A stretch of DNA of 51,152 nucleotides from IMG/VR virus record IMGVR_UViG_3300021373_000228, positions 1 to 51,152 of that record; one strand, 5' to 3'. Positions 655 to 49,274 of this stretch are shown here, in pieces. The position numbers and the translations under genes are program-made. The notes under the pieces are model-generated. The model worked only from the letters and a program-made list of their open reading frames with translations. It was not told the origin of the DNA and did not search any database. The DNA comes from a virus. Its lineage: Duplodnaviria; Caudoviricetes. Position 1 is the first letter of the stretch. The number at the start of each line of letters is the position of its first letter.

Positions 655-807
655 TGTGTGTGTTCCTCTTGTTAAACGCAATTATGGCCTTGCCGCAGTT
701 GGTCGGCCTCTCGTAGAGAAGTGGCATATTTTCAAAACTGTCAAGATACCCACCACCATTTTGTTACCAATTATTTCAGTTTTGTAACATTTTGTGATGA
801 TAACGCA

Positions 808-999
808 AACATTCAAAACCCGGAATATATATAGGTAGAATTACTCATATGTAATGAAATCAATAGCTTAACATTTTATGCATTCACATAATCGTTTTAA
901 TGAATGTTTGAATGTGTTTTTCATGATCGCATTACATAAAAGAGAAACAATACATTCAATACCGGGAATGTTATGGCTAACATTCAAAACCCGGAATGT
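808..999. repeat. Three copies of the dyad ACATTC-N8-GAAT(G/A)T, operator-like
   Basis: Copies at ~809, ~952 and ~980; the first and third share AACATTCAAAACCCGGAAT. Confidence 0.8.
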
Positions 1000-1007
1000 A
1001 TTGCATT

Positions 1008-1389: not shown

Positions 1390-1418
1390 TTGACTAGGGG
1401 TAAAATATGGGTACAACT
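1390..1418 (+). promoter_or_regulatory. Putative sigma70-type promoter
   Basis: TTGACT-N16-TACAACT. Confidence 0.5.
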
Positions 1419-1545
1419 GCGGAGCAGGAGCAGCAGAGTTAAACTTTTAGTGTATTAACTTAAAATAAAGTAATAAATAATAAATAGTTAAACTTTATAT
1501 AAGAGTGTTGCAATAAAGAAAGTGGACATAGGTAGAGTTTAACTC

Positions 1546-1575
1546 TTGACATATTCACTATTTTATATGTATACT
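1546..1575 (+). promoter_or_regulatory. Putative sigma70-type promoter for the + arm or leader RNA
   Basis: TTGACA-N18-TATACT. Confidence 0.65.
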
Positions 1576-1581
1576 ATTATC

Positions 1582-1706
1582 AAGTAACACACAATAACAA
1601 GTATAAACATAATAGTGTTACACTATAGGTACGTGTCACGAATATATGTGTCACTCTTCCTCTTGTCTCCTCTCCCTCACACGTAGTTTGCGACACGTAC
1701 CTTTTT
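1582..1706 (+). ncRNA. Candidate small RNA or attenuator: long hairpin with anti-Shine-Dalgarno pyrimidine loop and U-tract
   Basis: Stem 1627-1651 pairs with 1679-1702; loop CACTCTTCCTCTTGTCTCCTCTCCCTC; TTTTT follows; upstream promoter; 5' end estimated. Confidence 0.55.
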
Positions 1707-1724
1707 CTCATAAAGGTATTGACA

Positions 1725-1982
1725 ATGAAACGTAAGCATATACAACTATATGCAGGCGATAACGTTATTGAAGAGTTTTACTCCGCTATAGCCGAAGGTA
1801 ACTCACGTAAATTACAACGCATACATATCCCCCGTAGTGATGTATTCTATGTTCGTGCTGCAATAGAGCAGGACACTGGTGTTCGCTACTCCTTAGACCA
1901 TGTAGAAAGAGCTATGTACCTAGAGGGTATGCTTGATCGCAAAGATGTATTAGACCCTGATAGAGAGCGAGACTATGGATAA
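1725..1982 (+). CDS. Hypothetical phage protein
   Basis: ORF; ATG at 1725 preferred over TTG at 1719; overlaps next gene. Confidence 0.75.
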   Translation: MKRKHIQLYAGDNVIEEFYSAIAEGNSRKLQRIHIPRSDVFYVRAAIEQDTGVRYSLDHVERAMYLEGMLDRKDVLDPDRERDYG

Positions 1983-2349
1983 CCTAAAGCTACCTATAGC
2001 ACTTGTGCTTGCTATGGCTGCTCAGCTAGCAGGTGGTGTGTGGTGGGTATCACAACAGGCAGCAACTATTGCTAGCCTTGAAGAGACAGTAGCACAGTTT
2101 GCTAGTAAGATGGCGGTAGAGGATAACGTCAATCTTAAGCGTGATGTGCAGGATAACGCAGACTACATAGCTGGTGCGTTTGATGAGATAGATGAACTTT
2201 GGGAAGAGACTGAAGAGTTGTGGGACGAGGCAGCATCAATGGCAAGCCATATGGTTAGCATAATGCAGTTACAGCAAAGAGTTGCAGTTCTAGAAAACAG
2301 CTTAAAGTTTCTTAACAGAGTGGACACCCCTAAATCTGATATGCGGTAA
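1975..2349 (+). CDS. N-terminal membrane anchor plus coiled-coil protein
   Basis: Hydrophobic N-terminus (LPIALVLAMAAQLAGGVWWV), then heptad-rich acidic region. Confidence 0.7.
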   Translation: MDNLKLPIALVLAMAAQLAGGVWWVSQQAATIASLEETVAQFASKMAVEDNVNLKRDVQDNADYIAGAFDEIDELWEETEELWDEAASMASHMVSIMQLQQRVAVLENSLKFLNRVDTPKSDMR

Positions 2350-5084: not shown

Positions 5085-5258
5085 ATGCTTAACTTTCTAA
5101 AACGTGTATTCAAGGCTATTGAAACAGCACAACAAAAACGCGCAGACTACAGACTATTACAAATGCTATCTGAGCGTGAACTACGTGACCTAGGCATTGG
5201 TCGCTCACAAATTAAGGAAATCATCTATGGCGAGGACACTAACGGAAAAGCAGCTTAA
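5085..5258 (+). CDS. DUF1127 (YjiS-like) small protein, 57 aa; absent from the ORF track
   Basis: SD AAGGAG; MLNFLKRVFKAIETAQQKRADYRLLQMLSERELRDLGIGRSQIKEIIYG matches the L..LSDREL.DIGI.RS.I signature. Confidence 0.85.
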   Translation: MLNFLKRVFKAIETAQQKRADYRLLQMLSERELRDLGIGRSQIKEIIYGEDTNGKAA

Positions 5259-5595
5259 GTTCCTTGAGGTACTATTTGACGAAGCTGGCGGTGATGTTGT
5301 TACAGCTAAGAAACTGGCAGGTTATGCACCTGAGTCCAGCACTGCAGCAATTGTGGAATCTCTAAAAGATGAAATCGCAGATAAAACACGCACTTATTTT
5401 GCTCGTACTGCGCCCAAAGCTGCTATGGCTATGGTTGGCGCTTTATATGATCCTACTGAACTAGGTATCAAAGAAAAGATGGTTGCGGCAAAAGATTTAC
5501 TTGACCGCGCTGGGCTTGGTAAGGTAGATAAGGTAGATGTCACCAGTGGTGGTGGCGTTTTCTATTTACCACCAAAAGAAGGTACGAACGAATAA
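5227..5595 (+). CDS. terS: Terminase small subunit (probable)
   Basis: LTEKQLKFLEVLF..AGG...AKKLAGY HTH and AAKDLLDRAG; lies upstream of terL; ATG at 5227. Confidence 0.7.
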   Translation: MARTLTEKQLKFLEVLFDEAGGDVVTAKKLAGYAPESSTAAIVESLKDEIADKTRTYFARTAPKAAMAMVGALYDPTELGIKEKMVAAKDLLDRAGLGKVDKVDVTSGGGVFYLPPKEGTNE

Positions 5596-6023
5596 GTAAA
5601 CCGTTAGTAATCCCTGAGAGGGAGCTTGGGTACTGGCAGTTACCCCTCCCTCCCAAAACACATAACAAAAACTGGCACACAATAGTTCGGGTAACAAAGA
5701 AGATACCGTGGGGCTATGAACAGCATCCAGACAATGATAGGCTTCTTGTACCTATTGAGTCAGAGCTAGAAGCGTTAGAGCTTGCAAAACGACACCTCAG
5801 GCAGTATAGTTACCGTGCGGTAGCTCAATGGTTGAGTAAAGAAACAGGCCGCTACATATCACACATGGGCCTAAAAAAGAGAATCGAAGTTGAGCAAAGA
5901 CGTAGGAAAGCAATTACAATTAAACGCAAGTTTGCCAAGTGGCTCCAAGAAACGCTACACGAGATCGAAAAGCTCGAAAGCCAAGGGGTCGGGGCATACT
6001 CAGAGTCCAGAGAAGACAGTTGA
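5592..6023 (+). CDS. HTH/recombinase-like DNA-binding protein; no canonical start (ATA at 5592 proposed)
   Basis: Frame open 5532-6023: KIPWGYEQHPD..LLVPIESELEALELAKRHLRQYSYRAVAQWLSKETGRYISHMGLKKR; ORF track gives only the last 63 aa. Confidence 0.65.
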   Translation: MSKPLVIPERELGYWQLPLPPKTHNKNWHTIVRVTKKIPWGYEQHPDNDRLLVPIESELEALELAKRHLRQYSYRAVAQWLSKETGRYISHMGLKKRIEVEQRRRKAITIKRKFAKWLQETLHEIEKLESQGVGAYSESREDS

Positions 6024-12812: not shown

Positions 12813-13772
12813 ATGTCGGAAGCCCAAACTATTGATGTAACATCTGCATCACATTTACGTAATATGGCACGTGTTAAGCGTGATGAAGAAGAACTAGAGG
12901 CACTGAAGCGGCAAGCTCGTGGTGAGACTGATGAAGATCAAACCGACGATACACAGAGTGAACCCAGTAGCGAAGACACTGAGGGAGCCGCAGTTCAGGA
13001 TGCGAGTGTATCTGAACAAGAAACAAAAGAGCAAGTTAAAGCAGAAGCACCCAAAGAAGAACCTGAGGGAGATGCTGGATTAAGTGCTGAAGAAAAATCT
13101 TTCAAGAAACGCTATGGCGATCTTCGCAAGCATATGCAAGAGAAAGATGCTGAGTTCAAGGCACAGCTTGAAGAGCTAAATAATAAGCTGGAGCTAGCAA
13201 CTAAGAATGAGCTAGTACTACCAAAGACAGAAACTGAGGTAGAAGCTTGGGCTAAGAAGTACCCAGATGTAGCAGGTATTGTAGAAGCTATTGCAGAAAA
13301 GAAAGCAGCAGAACGTTCTACAGATTTAGACAATCGTTTAAAAGAGATTGAGGAGCTACGTACAAAAGCTAAGCGTGAGAAAGCTGAAGCTGAGCTAGCT
13401 GCACTACATCCTGATTTCTCTGAGATTCGTGCAGATGATGCATTCCATGAATGGGCTAAGACACAGCCTAAAGTGGTTCAGGATGCTCTATATGAGAACA
13501 CAGAGGATGCTAAATCTGTAGCCCGTGTCATTGATTTGTATAAATCAGACAAAGGTATAAAAACTAAGAAGGACAACAGCGCAGATAAAGCTGCAGCCTC
13601 TTCAGTTAAAACTAAAGGTAAACCCACAATTGATCCACAGGACTCTTCACAGTACCTACGTGAATCAGAAGTAGCTAAAATGTCTATTAAAGAGTATGAG
13701 AAGCGTCAGGAAGAAATCCTAAACGCACAACGCTCTGGGAAATTTATTTATGATGTAACAAAAAGAGCTTGA
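12813..13772 (+). CDS. Capsid scaffolding protein (probable)
   Basis: Acidic coiled coil, FKKRYGDLR, HPDF; directly upstream of the capsid gene. Confidence 0.75.
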   Translation: MSEAQTIDVTSASHLRNMARVKRDEEELEALKRQARGETDEDQTDDTQSEPSSEDTEGAAVQDASVSEQETKEQVKAEAPKEEPEGDAGLSAEEKSFKKRYGDLRKHMQEKDAEFKAQLEELNNKLELATKNELVLPKTETEVEAWAKKYPDVAGIVEAIAEKKAAERSTDLDNRLKEIEELRTKAKREKAEAELAALHPDFSEIRADDAFHEWAKTQPKVVQDALYENTEDAKSVARVIDLYKSDKGIKTKKDNSADKAAASSVKTKGKPTIDPQDSSQYLRESEVAKMSIKEYEKRQEEILNAQRSGKFIYDVTKRA

Positions 13773-13797
13773 CACTCTTAACATCCTAGATAAAACT
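13769..13797 (+). promoter_or_regulatory. Putative capsid gene promoter
   Basis: TTGACA-N16-TAAAACT. Confidence 0.6.
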
Positions 13798-37700: not shown

Positions 37701-37731
37701 AAGAGGGGCCAAACGGCCCCTTTATTTTATT
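37696..37731. terminator. Bidirectional rho-independent terminator between the arms
   Basis: AATAAAAG-AGGGGCC-aaac-GGCCCCT-TTATTTTATT between convergent stop codons. Confidence 0.9.
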
Positions 37732-41763: not shown

Positions 41764-41773
41764 GTCTATCTCC

Positions 41774-42376
41774 TCATTGATAGTTTGGAAAATTATAAAA
41801 GTTTGATATGCAGTAACGTCCTCTATTAGGTACATCTGCTGTATATTTTACAGGTGTTACTTCATGAGCTAGCTTCATAGACATAGCTAATGCTCTATTA
41901 TGCTTGCACTCAATCGTTACATCATTATCAAGTATAATATCCCCACCTTCAAAACCTTTAGGTTGCTTGAAAGCCCAAAATAACATAGTCATAATGCTAA
42001 CGTCTGTATGCTGTCCGTAGTTATCTTTGTCTTCATAATATAGTATCTGAATAGACTCTGTAAGTTCTCCACCGTTTAAAGCATCAAAAGCCCAGTGTTG
42101 CGCAGAAAGTGGACCCATCATTTCAGGGGTCATATACTTTCTAGTATTCTTATATATGTTAGAAGCCTGAGAGTCTTTGAACACTTCATTTAAGAATATT
42201 GCATTAGTATGTTTCTTTTCTGTACCACCTGTATTTTCTCTACGCATCAGAGGTTTAATGTTAAGATCAATTTCTAACATCATGCGAGACAATGCATCAT
42301 CCGTAAATACATTATCGAATACCATGTAGGGTCTACCTGATTTGGTAAAACCAGGTGTCATAATCATATCACTCAA
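41774..42376 (-). CDS. 2OG-Fe(II) oxygenase (prolyl-hydroxylase-like)
   Basis: HTD...FEGGD...HEVTPV...RY metal triad and Arg. Confidence 0.85.
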   Translation of the reverse strand: MSDMIMTPGFTKSGRPYMVFDNVFTDDALSRMMLEIDLNIKPLMRRENTGGTEKKHTNAIFLNEVFKDSQASNIYKNTRKYMTPEMMGPLSAQHWAFDALNGGELTESIQILYYEDKDNYGQHTDVSIMTMLFWAFKQPKGFEGGDIILDNDVTIECKHNRALAMSMKLAHEVTPVKYTADVPNRGRYCISNFYNFPNYQ

Positions 42377-45728: not shown

Positions 45729-45757
45729 AGTTATACACTACACATCAACTGTGTCAA
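45729..45757 (-). promoter_or_regulatory. Putative promoter overlapping the end of pol
   Basis: TTGACA-N16-TATAACT on the - strand. Confidence 0.6.
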
Positions 45758-47789: not shown

Positions 47790-47809
47790 TTCTCTCACCT
47801 CATTGAATA

Positions 47810-49099: not shown

Positions 49100-49274
49100 T
49101 ATCGAAATCTCCTCTCAGGAATCTAAACATTACTTCTATTGCAGCCAAAGGCCAAAAGATTGCAAAGCGCAGTGAGACATCTCTTCCTTCACTGTCCTGC
49201 GCTTCTACTACTAAAGCTAAAAAGGGTATAGCTAGTAGGTACATTACAAACATACCCTTGAAAAACTCTATCAT
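49077..49274 (-). CDS. Small membrane protein
   Basis: Two hydrophobic segments; ATG at 49274 with SD GGAGG. Confidence 0.65.
   Translation of the reverse strand: MIEFFKGMFVMYLLAIPFLALVVEAQDSEGRDVSLRFAIFWPLAAIEVMFRFLRGDFDNDGTGTD

What the first reader, a model, noticed from the sequence alone, without database searches (positions are those of the whole stretch)
1546..1706. Candidate phage sRNA whose pyrimidine loop is antisense to RBSs of the phage's own early/replication genes
Seen: a TTGACA/TATACT promoter, then a ~23-bp stem (1627-1651/1679-1702) presenting a 27-nt loop CACUCUUCCUCUUGUCUCCUCUCCCUC, then U5. Loop segments equal the + strand at - arm RBSs, so they are complementary to those mRNAs: TTCCTCTTGT at the GP88-like gene (663-672, 10/10); TCTCCTCTC at helicase (49108-49116, 9/9); CTCTC[A]CCTCA at DNA pol (47792-47802, 10 bp with one bulge); TCTTCCTC at the 49274 gene (8/8); TCTCCTC at nrdJ (41769-41775, 7/7). 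The late-gene RBSs checked (AAGGAG, CAGGAG) match only 5-6 nt. Known: alphaproteobacterial cuckoo/CcsR and AbcR sRNAs act through C/U-rich anti-SD loops. Inference: an RNA-based early-to-late switch or host translation silencer, possibly doubling as an attenuator for the late operon. Caveat: any anti-SD-like loop matches SD sequences partly by chance.
Basis: partly seen in the sequence, partly recalled or inferred. Interest (0 to 1): 0.9.

Follow-up and report, generated by a model that had tools for sequence, protein, structure and literature searches.

The report
Phage small RNA mirroring replication-gene RBSs
A conserved two-hairpin RNA element at the head of the lysis and structural genes of an abundant marine roseophage carries a pyrimidine loop whose core is the exact complement of a ribosome-binding motif that marks the replication genes of the same phage group, which suggests an RNA that tunes their translation.

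Summary
The window is an HMO-2011-type roseophage contig. A near-consensus promoter (1546-1575) is followed by a 7-bp hairpin (1584-1621), a 23-bp hairpin (1627-1702) with a 27-nt pyrimidine loop, and a T-run. The element is single-copy. It is present in 84 of 84 close relatives and in 0 of 6 distant ones. Both stems covary, and G.U pairs outnumber A.C 142 to 18, which points to plus-strand RNA. It matches no Rfam family and fails the cuckoo/CcsR definition.

In the window alone, replication-arm RBSs do not pair significantly better than structural-arm RBSs (p 0.12). Across 10 hairpin-bearing genomes, GGAGACA, the complement of the conserved loop core UGUCUCC, is the top k-mer that separates replication-arm from structural-arm RBS windows (35/331 vs 3/370). 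It is nearly absent from hairpin-less relatives (2/211).

Best reading, confidence about 0.45: a roughly 125-nt phage RNA that pairs with RBSs of the phage's own replication genes. A leader terminator or attenuator is the main rival. No transcript data could be obtained, and the hairpin-bearing phages form one clade.

The parts
1390..1417 (+). P1, promoter-like site TTGACT-N16-TACAAC
   Evidence: One of 4 matches to TTGACW-N16-TAHAAC in the window (0.07 expected). Found at the same relative place in 20 of 21 relatives inspected and in 7 of 7 whole genomes.
1437..1544 (.). Three AGTTWAAC palindromes (1437-1445, 1486-1494, 1536-1544), 49-50 bp apart, the last one abutting the -35 of P2
   Evidence: 15 matches in the window against 5.7 +/- 2.7 expected. 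Possible regulator sites; this is inference.
1546..1575 (+). P2, sigma-70-type promoter TTGACA-18-TATACT
   Evidence: 11 of 12 consensus positions. TTG of the -35 and TA...T of the -10 are invariant in 65 aligned relatives.
1582..1707 (+). Predicted RNA of about 126 nt, from the inferred start to the U-run
   Evidence: The start is inferred from the -10 position. The fold gives two hairpins at -34.3 kcal/mol. The equivalent length in 65 relatives is 119-143 nt, median 127. No transcript data.
1584..1621 (+). HP1: 7-bp stem (1584-1590/1615-1621) with an A-rich loop, 1-2 nt after the predicted start
   Evidence: 95.6% of cells paired, 5 of 7 pairs with changes on both sides, 0 of 500 shuffles reach the observed value. 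Loop 17-26 nt, median A fraction 0.55.
1627..1702 (+). HP2: 23-bp stem that presents the pyrimidine loop
   Evidence: z -5.9. 87.4% of cells paired, 12 of 23 pairs with changes on both sides. G.U 142 against A.C 18 cells. The covariance model scores 132.6 bits and finds a single copy in the window.
1652..1678 (+). 27-nt C/U loop; the conserved core TGTCTCC lies at 1664-1670
   Evidence: CUCC in 59 of 61 distinct loops and UGUCUCC in 51 of 61; median C+U fraction 0.86.
1702..1706 (+). T5 run after the stem (possible terminator U-tract)
   Evidence: At least 5 T in 8 nt after the stem in 52 of 61 distinct relatives, and 4 T in the other 9. The run is kept in L053 and L080, where P3 is not adjacent.
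1719..1746 (+). P3, promoter-like site TTGACA-N16-TACAAC that overlaps the start of gene 1
   Evidence: The 16-nt spacing is kept even where the ATG shifts by 3 nt. The site travels with gene 1 in L053 and L080.
1725..1982 (+). Gene 1 (85 aa, conserved, unknown function, no good SD)
   Evidence: 491 relatives by tblastn. No Pfam or PHROG match. Its RBS ranks among the last 17 in loop pairing in all 7 genomes: 48/54, 76/76, 67/69, 67/82, 64/69, 59/75, 63/67.
41767..41775 (-). Candidate target: RBS of the ribonucleotide reductase gene (GAGGAGAUA on the mRNA)
   Evidence: Pairs with loop UGUCUCCUC through 8 Watson-Crick pairs and one G.U; this is my reading. The orthologue ranks 4-14 of 54-82 genes in 7 of 7 genomes.
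49106..49116 (-). Candidate target: RBS of the DnaB-like helicase gene
   Evidence: 9-nt exact complement, duplex -17.3 kcal/mol. The orthologue ranks 2-19 in 7 genomes.
663..672 (-). Candidate target: RBS of the GP88-like gene
   Evidence: 10-nt exact complement, -14.7 kcal/mol. At the equivalent leader the longest run is 3 nt in CRP-603 and 7 nt in CRP-2. Those leaders are cut to 24 nt by the record ends.
5085..5258 (+). DUF1127 gene in the same arm (possible RNA-binding partner; weak link)
   Evidence: Pfam PF06568, 30.8 bits against a cut-off of 23.3. Present in 13 of 15 relatives, including 4 of 6 without the hairpin.

Best explanation
The region 1546-1707 is a small-RNA gene, or the promoter-proximal RNA module, of an HMO-2011-type roseophage. 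A host-type promoter (P2) starts an RNA of about 125 nt. The RNA begins with a short 5' hairpin (HP1). It continues into a 23-bp hairpin (HP2) and ends, for part of the transcripts, at the U-run after HP2. The rest read through into the lysis and structural arm. HP2 holds a 27-nt purine-poor loop open.

The conserved loop core UGUCUCC, with its C/U flanks, is complementary to the Shine-Dalgarno region GGAGACA (GGAGAYA with a G.U pair). That motif is typical of the opposite, replication-arm genes of the same phages: ribonucleotide reductase, helicase and many small genes. The RNA most likely pairs with these RBSs and lowers, or otherwise tunes, their translation or stability.

Shown: the structure, its strand, its conservation, the promoter, and the co-occurrence of the loop with the RBS motif. 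Inferred: the transcript ends, the pairing in vivo, the sign of the effect and its timing.
For: Structure: z -5.9 on the plus strand against -1.3 on the minus strand.

HP2: 87.4% of cells paired, against 81.0 +/- 0.5 in shuffles (0 of 500 as high) and 24-55% when the partner is slid. 12 of 23 pairs change on both sides.

HP1: 95.6% paired, with 5 of 7 pairs changed on both sides.

Strand: G.U 142 against A.C 18 of 1297 cells.

Distribution: present on the plus strand in 84 of 84 sources (the window, 80 viral contigs, CRP-603, CRP-2, CRP-207) and in 0 of 6 distant relatives. Single copy in the window.

Promoter: the P2 -35 TTG and -10 TA...T are invariant in 65 sequences, and HP1 starts a median 8 nt after the -10.

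U-run: at least 5 T of 8 in 52 of 61.

Module boundary: the module stays with its promoter when 1-2 genes are inserted before gene 1. A separate promoter-like site, P3, serves gene 1.

The phage's plain terminator at 37702-37730 has a 4-nt loop, so HP2 is more elaborate than termination needs.

Targets:
- Real loops bind RBS windows better than 300 of 300 composition-matched shuffles.
- Replication-arm RBSs pair better in 7 of 7 genomes.
- GGAGACA occurs in 35 of 331 replication-arm against 3 of 370 structural-arm RBS windows in 10 hairpin-bearing genomes. In 6 hairpin-less genomes the counts are 2 of 211 and 3 of 237.
- An unbiased scan ranks GAGACA and GGAGACA first, both for replication against structural arm and for hairpin-bearing against hairpin-less genomes (p 2.5e-10 to 1.9e-6). 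Hairpin-less genomes give AAGGAG instead.
- Among distinct windows the counts are 33 of 316 against 3 of 354.
- The motif density is 4.23 per kb in RBS windows against 0.099 per kb elsewhere in the same genes.
- The RNR and helicase orthologues rank near the top in all 7 genomes.
Against: In the window itself the contrast between arms is not significant: p 0.12, with 8.7% of shuffles as low; with the second gene set, p 0.075 and 38 of 200 shuffles as low. Exact GGAGACA is absent from the window's RBSs: 0 of 18 replication-arm windows, and 2 of 18 only if G.U is allowed.

A reversed loop separates the arms as well as the real loop in 3 of 7 genomes, so part of the signal is plain C/U against G/A composition.

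Replication-arm genes have stronger SDs in general (p 0.035).

The 10 hairpin-bearing genomes sit on one side of a 100/100 branch of the polymerase tree, and three pairs are near-copies. The co-occurrence may therefore be a single historical event.

I picked start codons by best pairing to a recalled anti-SD motif, which favours GGAG in every set.

In CRP-13, CRP-9 and MW202701 the polymerase was not found on the strand I called 'early', so their arm labels are uncertain. CRP-13 also scores high with mock loops (0.224).

In L053 and L080 the genes right after HP2 have no promoter of their own, so HP2 cannot terminate fully.

RNAalifold on the raw MAFFT alignment recovered only 7 pairs.
Confidence: 0.45

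Rival explanations
1. A leader terminator or attenuator that acts in cis. P1 and P2 fire constitutively, and HP2 plus the U-run stops most transcripts before the lysis and structural genes. This is like lambda pR'-tR' with its 6S RNA. A phage factor, or the loop as a binding site, lets RNA polymerase through later. The short RNA would be a by-product.
For: The order is promoter, hairpin with U-run, then lysis-type, terminase and structural genes. The U-run is kept in 52 of 61. In L053 and L080 the downstream genes depend on read-through. Phased palindromes just upstream of P2 suggest regulation.
Against: A promoter of the phage's own class (P3) sits 16-30 nt after HP2 and would bypass the block. 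The 25-34-nt conserved loop is not needed for termination, and the phage's plain terminator has a 4-nt loop. No antiterminator was found, but only 30 proteins were scanned. This model does not explain the GGAGACA co-occurrence.
Confidence: 0.2
2. A host-directed anti-SD sRNA. The phage would carry a functional analogue of the alphaproteobacterial cuckoo/CcsR RNAs that occludes SD sequences of host mRNAs, possibly together with the phage DUF1127 protein.
For: The C/U loop carries CUCC in 59 of 61. Cuckoo RNAs with CCUCCUCCC loops and neighbouring DUF1127 genes occur in Rhodobacteraceae, and CcaF1 binds RNA (passages of PMC8034643 and PMC4615179). A DUF1127 gene lies in the same arm.
Against: The element is not a cuckoo RNA by definition: 0 of 61 loops have the motif, there is one C/U hairpin of 73-97 nt instead of 2-4 hairpins of 24-50 nt, and no RF02344 hit was found. 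DUF1127 is also present in 4 of 6 hairpin-less relatives and is never adjacent to a C/U tract. No host genome could be examined. The conserved UGU next to CUCC fits the phage's own RBS motif better than a generic SD.
Confidence: 0.12
3. A 5'-UTR processing, stability or translation element. The 20-25-bp stem would be an RNase III site like T7 R0.3 or the lambda N leader, or the open pyrimidine loop would recruit S1 and 30S subunits for gene 1, which has almost no SD.
For: The stem length of about two helical turns is kept while its sequence changes. Tandem promoters followed by a long hairpin and then the first gene resemble the T7 early leader (this comparison is recalled). Gene 1 has the weakest RBS.
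Against: The hairpin stays with the promoter, not with gene 1, when genes are inserted, and those inserted genes have normal SDs. Loop sequence conservation (UGUCUCC in 51 of 61) is not required for RNase III. Nothing here tests cleavage or S1 binding.
Confidence: 0.1
4. A DNA-level element: a cruciform or single-strand hairpin used in replication, packaging or promoter function.
For: It lies in the 1.07-kb divergent intergenic region, which also holds iteron-like repeats.
Against: G.U-type pairs are eight times more frequent than A.C. The strand asymmetry, the upstream promoter and the downstream U-run all fit RNA. The iterons lie 500-900 bp away.
Confidence: 0.03

Closest known systems
Cuckoo / CcsR / ar14 sRNAs of Alphaproteobacteria (Rfam RF02344)
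   Same: Hairpin loops rich in C and U that resemble an anti-Shine-Dalgarno sequence. Stems vary by compensatory changes while the loop is conserved. The hosts are Rhodobacteraceae, and a DUF1127 gene is in the neighbourhood (passages read in PMC4615179 and PMC8034643).
   Different: There is one C/U hairpin of 73-97 nt instead of 2-4 hairpins of 24-50 nt. The core is UGUCUCC, and CCUCCUCCC occurs in 0 of 61 loops. No covariance-model hit was found. The DUF1127 gene lies 3.4 kb away and is not specific to hairpin-bearing phages. The element is phage-borne and its best-matching RBSs are the phage's own.
c4 antisense RNA of phages P1 and P7
   Same: A phage-encoded structured RNA whose loops pair with the ribosome-binding region of the phage's own gene to block translation (passage of the review PMC12197685).
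   Different: c4 acts on one downstream target in its own transcript and governs immunity. Here many candidate targets lie on the opposite arm and share a short RBS tag. No sequence or structure similarity was tested.
Lambda pR'-tR' unit (6S RNA) before the late operon
   Same: A strong host-type promoter, a short terminated RNA, then lysis, terminase and structural genes (recalled; gene order here).
   Different: A further promoter follows the hairpin. The loop is large and conserved. No Q-like antiterminator has been identified. The lambda 6S RNA has no known trans role.
C-rich-loop sRNAs of Staphylococcus (RNAIII and related)
   Same: UCCC-type loop motifs that start pairing at SD sequences of several mRNAs (passage in PMC4615179).
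   Different: Unrelated host, architecture and sequence. The likeness is in mechanism only.

Membership tests
Cuckoo/CcsR (RF02344, ar14) | 2 to 4 adjacent hairpins of 24-50 nt, each with the loop motif | tested here: not met
   One C/U-loop hairpin of 73-97 nt plus one hairpin with an A-rich loop. Definition taken from PMC4615179.
Cuckoo/CcsR (RF02344, ar14) | Loop motif CCUCCUCCC | tested here: not met
   0 of 61 distinct loops carry it; CUCC is in 59 of 61.
Cuckoo/CcsR (RF02344, ar14) | Match to the Rfam covariance model | tested here: not met
   No hit at gathering score over the whole window, at E up to 10 in 1200-1800, or at E up to 1 in 16 relatives.
Cuckoo/CcsR, CIN1 subgroup | Adjacency to a DUF1127 gene | tested here: not met
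   The DUF1127 gene is at 5085-5258, 3.4 kb downstream. No C/U tract lies next to the DUF1127 gene; two short tracts elsewhere in L100 and L103 (13 loci). DUF1127 is also present in 4 of 6 hairpin-less relatives.
Sigma-70-type promoter | -35 and -10 hexamers at 16-18 nt, with the key positions conserved | tested here: met
   11 of 12 positions. TTG and TA...T are invariant in 65 sequences. Activity was not measured.
Intrinsic (Rho-independent) terminator | Stable stem, short loop (3-8 nt), then a U-run | tested here: inconclusive
   Stem and U-run are present, with at least 5 T of 8 in 52 of 61. Read-through is required in L053 and L080.
Trans-acting base-pairing sRNA | A discrete transcript with defined ends | not testable with these tools
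Trans-acting base-pairing sRNA | A conserved single-stranded seed with complementary sites in targets that co-occur with it | tested here: met
   UGUCUCC is in 51 of 61 loops. GGAGACA occurs in 35 of 331 replication-arm against 3 of 370 structural-arm RBS windows, and in 2 of 211 in hairpin-less genomes; it is the top k-mer. Caveat: the hairpin-bearing genomes form one clade.
Lambda-type late antitermination unit | A Q-like antiterminator and its loading site | not tested
   Only 30 of the roughly 58 proteins were scanned against Pfam. None was a known antiterminator.

The most novel reading that the evidence does not exclude
In a phage that lacks its own RNA polymerase, one small RNA made at the head of the lysis and structural arm acts as a global riboregulator of the whole replication module. 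The replication-arm genes share an RBS tag, GGAGACA (SD plus ACA), that is read by the conserved loop core UGUCUCC. As the RNA accumulates, it turns down translation of reductase, helicase, polymerase and the small early genes together. This would be an RNA-based temporal switch whose loop and tag have co-evolved in one of the most abundant marine phage groups.
Probability: 0.3. Interest if true: 0.85.

Novelty: new variant of a known kind. Interest (0 to 1): 0.7.

Why it matters
[quoted passage not shown] In what I read of those two papers their gene regulation is not described: the words promoter, terminator and sRNA are absent from the first, and promoter, intergenic and DUF1127 from the second.

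This element gives a concrete, testable regulatory RNA with cultured representatives (CRP-2, CRP-603, CRP-207). It comes with a defined seed, a defined RBS tag and named candidate targets.

If the pairing is real, it would be a multi-target sRNA by which a lytic-type marine phage regulates its own replication genes. It would also be a case where the sRNA seed and the target RBSs can be seen to co-occur across natural genomes. The three conserved promoter sites also give a first promoter map for the group.

Tried and rejected
1. Known RNA families: Rfam at gathering score and at loose E-values gave nothing at the hairpin. A weak minus-strand MicC hit scored 22.4 bits against 90 needed and is taken as chance. 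No tRNA or tmRNA was found.

2. DUF1127 as a specific partner: the gene is present in 13 of 15 relatives, including 4 of 6 without the hairpin. No C/U tract lies beside it. I kept this only as a weak lead.

3. Minus-strand or coding readings: the minus-strand fold is not special. G.U outnumbers A.C 142 to 18. An open frame across the loop is missing in 21 of 65 plus-strand and 23 of 65 minus-strand sequences.

4. Pairing of the loop with the purine-rich start of the P1 transcript: rejected by eye, because that segment is GUAG-rich and not complementary in many relatives.

5. Copies in bacterial genomes: a stem-based pattern found 80 palindromic places in unrelated bacteria and none in Rhodobacteraceae. 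Only one marginal model hit, on both strands, resulted.

6. Gene 1 function: Pfam, PHROGs and the ESM Atlas gave nothing. The AlphaFold model had pLDDT 58.8 and was too poor to search with.

7. Conservation of the 10-nt GP88-like match:
- cut the relatives' leaders short, so it is not a valid count.
- One search found the gene start in only 1 of 80 loci (97.5% identical).
- One search gave runs of 10, 3 and 7 nt (window, CRP-603, CRP-2) on leaders truncated by record ends. The result is inconclusive.

8. Pooled statistics: the pooled regression (arm coefficient -1.24 kcal/mol, t -3.96) and the pooled shuffle test (0 of 150) overstate significance. The genomes are related and the shuffles were drawn independently per genome.

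9. One RBS window added was off by one base (start 653 instead of 654).

10. Supplementary files of the papers were not seen. They may hold promoter or transcript notes.
Full report
WHAT THE WINDOW IS. The window is a whole IMG/VR record: 51,152 bp, linear, estimated 93% complete. Its nearest named relatives are Roseobacter phages CRP-603, CRP-2 and CRP-207, at about 75% nucleotide identity over parts of 671-2215. CRP-2 is described as an HMO-2011-type podovirus (passages of PMC6918029).

A 1.07-kb gene-free region (655-1724) separates two arms. The plus arm starts with an 85-aa conserved protein (gene 1). It continues with a membrane/coiled-coil protein that sits beside chitinase and peptidase genes in CRP-901 (endolysin genes lie 3-5 genes downstream of gene 1 in CRP-9 and CRP-13), then an HNH endonuclease, a DUF1127 protein and the large terminase, followed by large ORFs that I did not scan and take to be structural genes.

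I call these the replication arm and the lysis/structural arm. That they are 'early' and 'late' is an assumption.

THE OBSERVATION.
- TTGACA-18-TATACT at 1546-1575 matches 11 of 12 consensus positions.
- The plus-strand RNA 1575-1712 folds to -34.3 kcal/mol with z -5.9, and 0 of 200 shuffles fold as well. The minus strand gives z -1.3.
- The large hairpin (HP2) is 1627-1651/1679-1702, with the 27-nt loop at 1652-1678 and a T5 run at 1702-1706.
- The quoted identities with minus-arm RBSs are exact.

CONSERVATION AND STRUCTURE. Gene 1 has 491 tblastn relatives in viral contigs, and the best 80 loci were kept. A covariance model built from 58 distinct upstream regions finds one copy in the window (132.6 bits; the next plus-strand hit scores 17.4 bits). 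It finds one plus-strand copy in each of 84 of 84 sources: the window, the 80 loci, CRP-603, CRP-2 and CRP-207. It finds none in HMO-2011, CRP-1, CRP-345, CRP-13, CRP-9 or MW202701 (searches show other sequence at that place).

HP2 was tested on a MAFFT alignment made without reference to structure. There, 87.4% of cells pair, against 81.0 +/- 0.5 in shuffles (0 of 500 as high) and 24-55% when partners are slid. 12 of 23 pairs change on both sides. RNAalifold on the same alignment recovered only the 7 lowest pairs. My single-sequence parser found a 20-27-pair hairpin in 49 of 58 sequences, and the other 9 were recovered by the model.

HP1 pairs in 95.6% of cells, with 5 of 7 pairs changed on both sides. 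G.U pairs outnumber A.C 142 to 18. The structure is therefore selected on the plus strand, which means RNA.

The 61 distinct loops are 25-34 nt long with a median of 86% C+U. They carry CUCC in 59, UGUCUCC in 51 and CCUCCUCCC in 0.

PROMOTERS AND ENDS. In 65 aligned relatives the -35 TTG and the -10 TA...T of P2 are invariant. HP1 begins a median 8 nt after the -10, which is 1-2 nt after the expected start. The distance to the U-run implies an RNA of 119-143 nt, median 127.

A second promoter type, TTGACW-N16-TAHAAC, occurs 4 times in the window against 0.07 expected. The sites are:
- 1390 (P1);
- 1719 (P3, overlapping the gene 1 start);
- 13769 (before the capsid gene);
- 45757 on the minus strand.

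The same homologous places recur in 7 of 7 whole genomes. In P3 the 16-nt spacing is kept even where the ATG moves by 3 nt.

HP2 thus lies between P2 and P3. In L053 and L080, one or two extra genes are inserted after HP2. The hairpin and its T-run stay with P1 and P2, and P3 stays with gene 1. The inserted genes have no promoter of their own, so some read-through of HP2 must occur.

At least 5 T in 8 nt follow the stem in 52 of 61 relatives. The T-run followed by an A-run could also serve as an upstream element for P3; this is inference. The arm's own plain terminator at 37702-37730 has a 4-nt loop.

DOES THE LOOP MATCH REPLICATION-ARM RBSs? In the window alone the evidence is weak.
- Duplex energies average -12.2 kcal/mol for 23 replication-arm RBSs and -10.3 for 35 structural-arm RBSs (MWU p 0.12).
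- Pairing to a recalled anti-SD motif also differs between the arms (p 0.035) and correlates with loop pairing (rho 0.47).
- The real loop binds RBSs better than 300 of 300 shuffles, but its preference between arms is reached by 8.7% of shuffles.

I then fetched six complete relatives. The replication arm pairs better in 7 of 7 genomes (p 0.006 to 0.33). Shuffled loops reach the observed contrast in 38, 6, 0, 5, 83, 0 and 1 of 200 trials. A reversed loop does as well as the real one in 3 of 7 genomes.

The orthologues of the reductase rank 9, 8, 4, 5, 14, 5, 6, and those of the helicase rank 4, 19, 2, 6, 3, 6, 17, out of 54-82 genes. Gene 1 ranks among the last 17 in every genome (48/54, 76/76, 67/69, 67/82, 64/69, 59/75, 63/67).

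Reading those RBSs showed a recurring GGAGACA, the exact complement of the loop core UGUCUCC. Its counts in 25-nt windows before start codons are:
- 10 hairpin-bearing genomes: 35 of 331 in the replication arm and 3 of 370 in the structural arm;
- 6 hairpin-less genomes: 2 of 211 and 3 of 237.

An unbiased scan of all 6-mers and 7-mers ranks GAGACA (45 vs 6, p 2.5e-10) and GGAGACA (35 vs 3, p 2.2e-9) first for replication against structural arm in hairpin-bearing genomes. The same k-mers rank first for hairpin-bearing against hairpin-less replication arms. Hairpin-less genomes give the ordinary AAGGAG.

Further checks gave the following.
- Counting distinct windows gives 33 of 316 against 3 of 354.
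- Allowing the G.U variant GGAGAYA gives 45 of 331 against 8 of 370, and 12 of 211 against 10 of 237 in hairpin-less genomes.
- The motif is 43 times denser in RBS windows than elsewhere in the same genes.
- It usually ends 4-5 nt before the start codon.
- Runs of at least 7 Watson-Crick pairs with the genome's own loop occur in 73 of 331 replication-arm and 23 of 370 structural-arm RBSs.

The window itself has no exact GGAGACA. Its reductase RBS carries GGAGAUA and its helicase RBS GGAGAUU, which by my reading keep the pairing through a G.U pair.

CAVEATS ON THAT RESULT.
- The 10 hairpin-bearing genomes lie on one side of a 100/100 branch of a polymerase tree, and three pairs are near-copies. 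The co-occurrence may be one historical event, although the motif sits on many non-orthologous genes.
- Starts were chosen by best pairing to a recalled anti-SD motif.
- In CRP-13, CRP-9 and MW202701 no polymerase was found on the strand I called the replication arm. [quoted passage not shown]
- The pooled statistics ignore relatedness.

WHAT IT IS NOT. No Rfam family matches. By the published definition of cuckoo RNAs (2-4 hairpins of 24-50 nt with CCUCCUCCC loops; PMC4615179) it is not a member.

A DUF1127 gene is present in 13 of 15 relatives, so it does not track the hairpin. DUF1127 is the family of CcaF1, an RNA-binding protein encoded beside cuckoo RNAs (PMC8034643).

No conserved reading frame crosses the loop. 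No copy was found in one-genome-per-species bacterial contigs with a stem pattern.

MECHANISM. The most economical reading has three parts.
- P2 makes a stable RNA of about 125 nt, with a 5' hairpin and a 3' hairpin with U-run.
- The long stem of HP2 holds a purine-poor and therefore unstructured loop open.
- The loop pairs with the SD-plus-ACA tag of replication-arm mRNAs and occludes ribosome binding.

Because the RNA is made at the head of the lysis and structural arm, it could couple the rise of that arm's transcription to the decline of replication-gene translation. Timing, sign and even the existence of the short transcript are inferred.

The rivals are a cis-acting attenuator, a host-directed anti-SD RNA, a processing or translation element, and a DNA element. 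They are listed with their evidence in the rival explanations.

Literature searches on HMO-2011-type phages and on phage sRNAs, and passages of PMC6918029, PMC9038755 and PMC12197685, showed no description of this element. Supplements were not available.

Noticed in passing
window 797-1001 and 1006-1093: Iteron-like repeats in the divergent intergenic region: three copies of ACATTCAAAACCCGGAAT-like 34-mers (797, 940, 968) and three exact TTTGTGATCACA palindromes (1006-1017, 1037-1048, 1082-1093), plus a degenerate copy near 791. They may be an origin or operator sites.
   Followed up: no
window 1437-1445, 1486-1494, 1536-1544: Three AGTTWAAC palindromes spaced 49-50 bp apart between P1 and P2, the last one touching the -35 of P2. 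Similar AGTTTAAC repeats stand before P2 in relatives. They may be sites of a regulator.
   Followed up: partly
window 1390-1417, 1719-1746, 13769-13796 (+), 45730-45757 (-): A promoter class TTGACW-N16-TAHAAC: 4 sites against 0.07 expected, all co-oriented with the genes, and at the same homologous places in 7 of 7 genomes. This amounts to a first promoter map for this phage group.
   Followed up: yes
window 1719-1752: P3 overlaps the first 8 codons of gene 1. The hexamer spacing is kept even where the ATG shifts by one codon, so transcripts from P3 would lack the gene 1 start. Gene 1 would then be translated only from upstream transcripts that read through the hairpin.
   Followed up: partly
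window 1418-1445 and the same place in relatives: The first 20-25 nt after P1 are a purine-rich stretch with a three-base rhythm (GGAGCAGGAGCAGCAGAG; GTAGCAGTAGCAG; GTAGTAGTAGTAG; GAGAGAGAGAG in different relatives), followed by a conserved AGAGTTAAAC. Unexplained.
   Followed up: no
window 5085-5258: A 57-aa DUF1127 protein (the family of the RNA-binding CcaF1) just before the terminase genes. It is present in 13 of 15 HMO-2011-type genomes checked and absent from HMO-2011 itself and from the freshwater MW202701.
   Followed up: yes
L053 112-1486 and 1745-2449; L080 671-1370: Paralogous genes of 223-234 aa (start MKLK.P..NR.RY.VL) are inserted between the hairpin and gene 1, and again after gene 1, in some relatives. 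Function unknown.
   Followed up: no
window 37702-37730: A canonical intrinsic terminator (GGGGCC, AAAC loop, GGCCCC, then UUUAUUUU) at the end of the lysis and structural arm, facing the convergent PhoH gene.
   Followed up: no
window 5614-5655: A hairpin after the gene ending at 5595 in which GAGGGAG pairs with CUCCCUC, so a C/U tract is sequestered there rather than displayed. The fold is not better than shuffles (z -1.15).
   Followed up: no
window 1975-2349: The second plus-arm gene (N-terminal membrane segment plus coiled coil, weak PilJ match) is shared at 73-77% nucleotide identity with unrelated roseophages CRP-4, CRP-7, CRP-13 and CRP-901, where (in CRP-901) it neighbours chitinase and peptidase genes. 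It is probably an exchanged lysis-cassette gene.
   Followed up: partly
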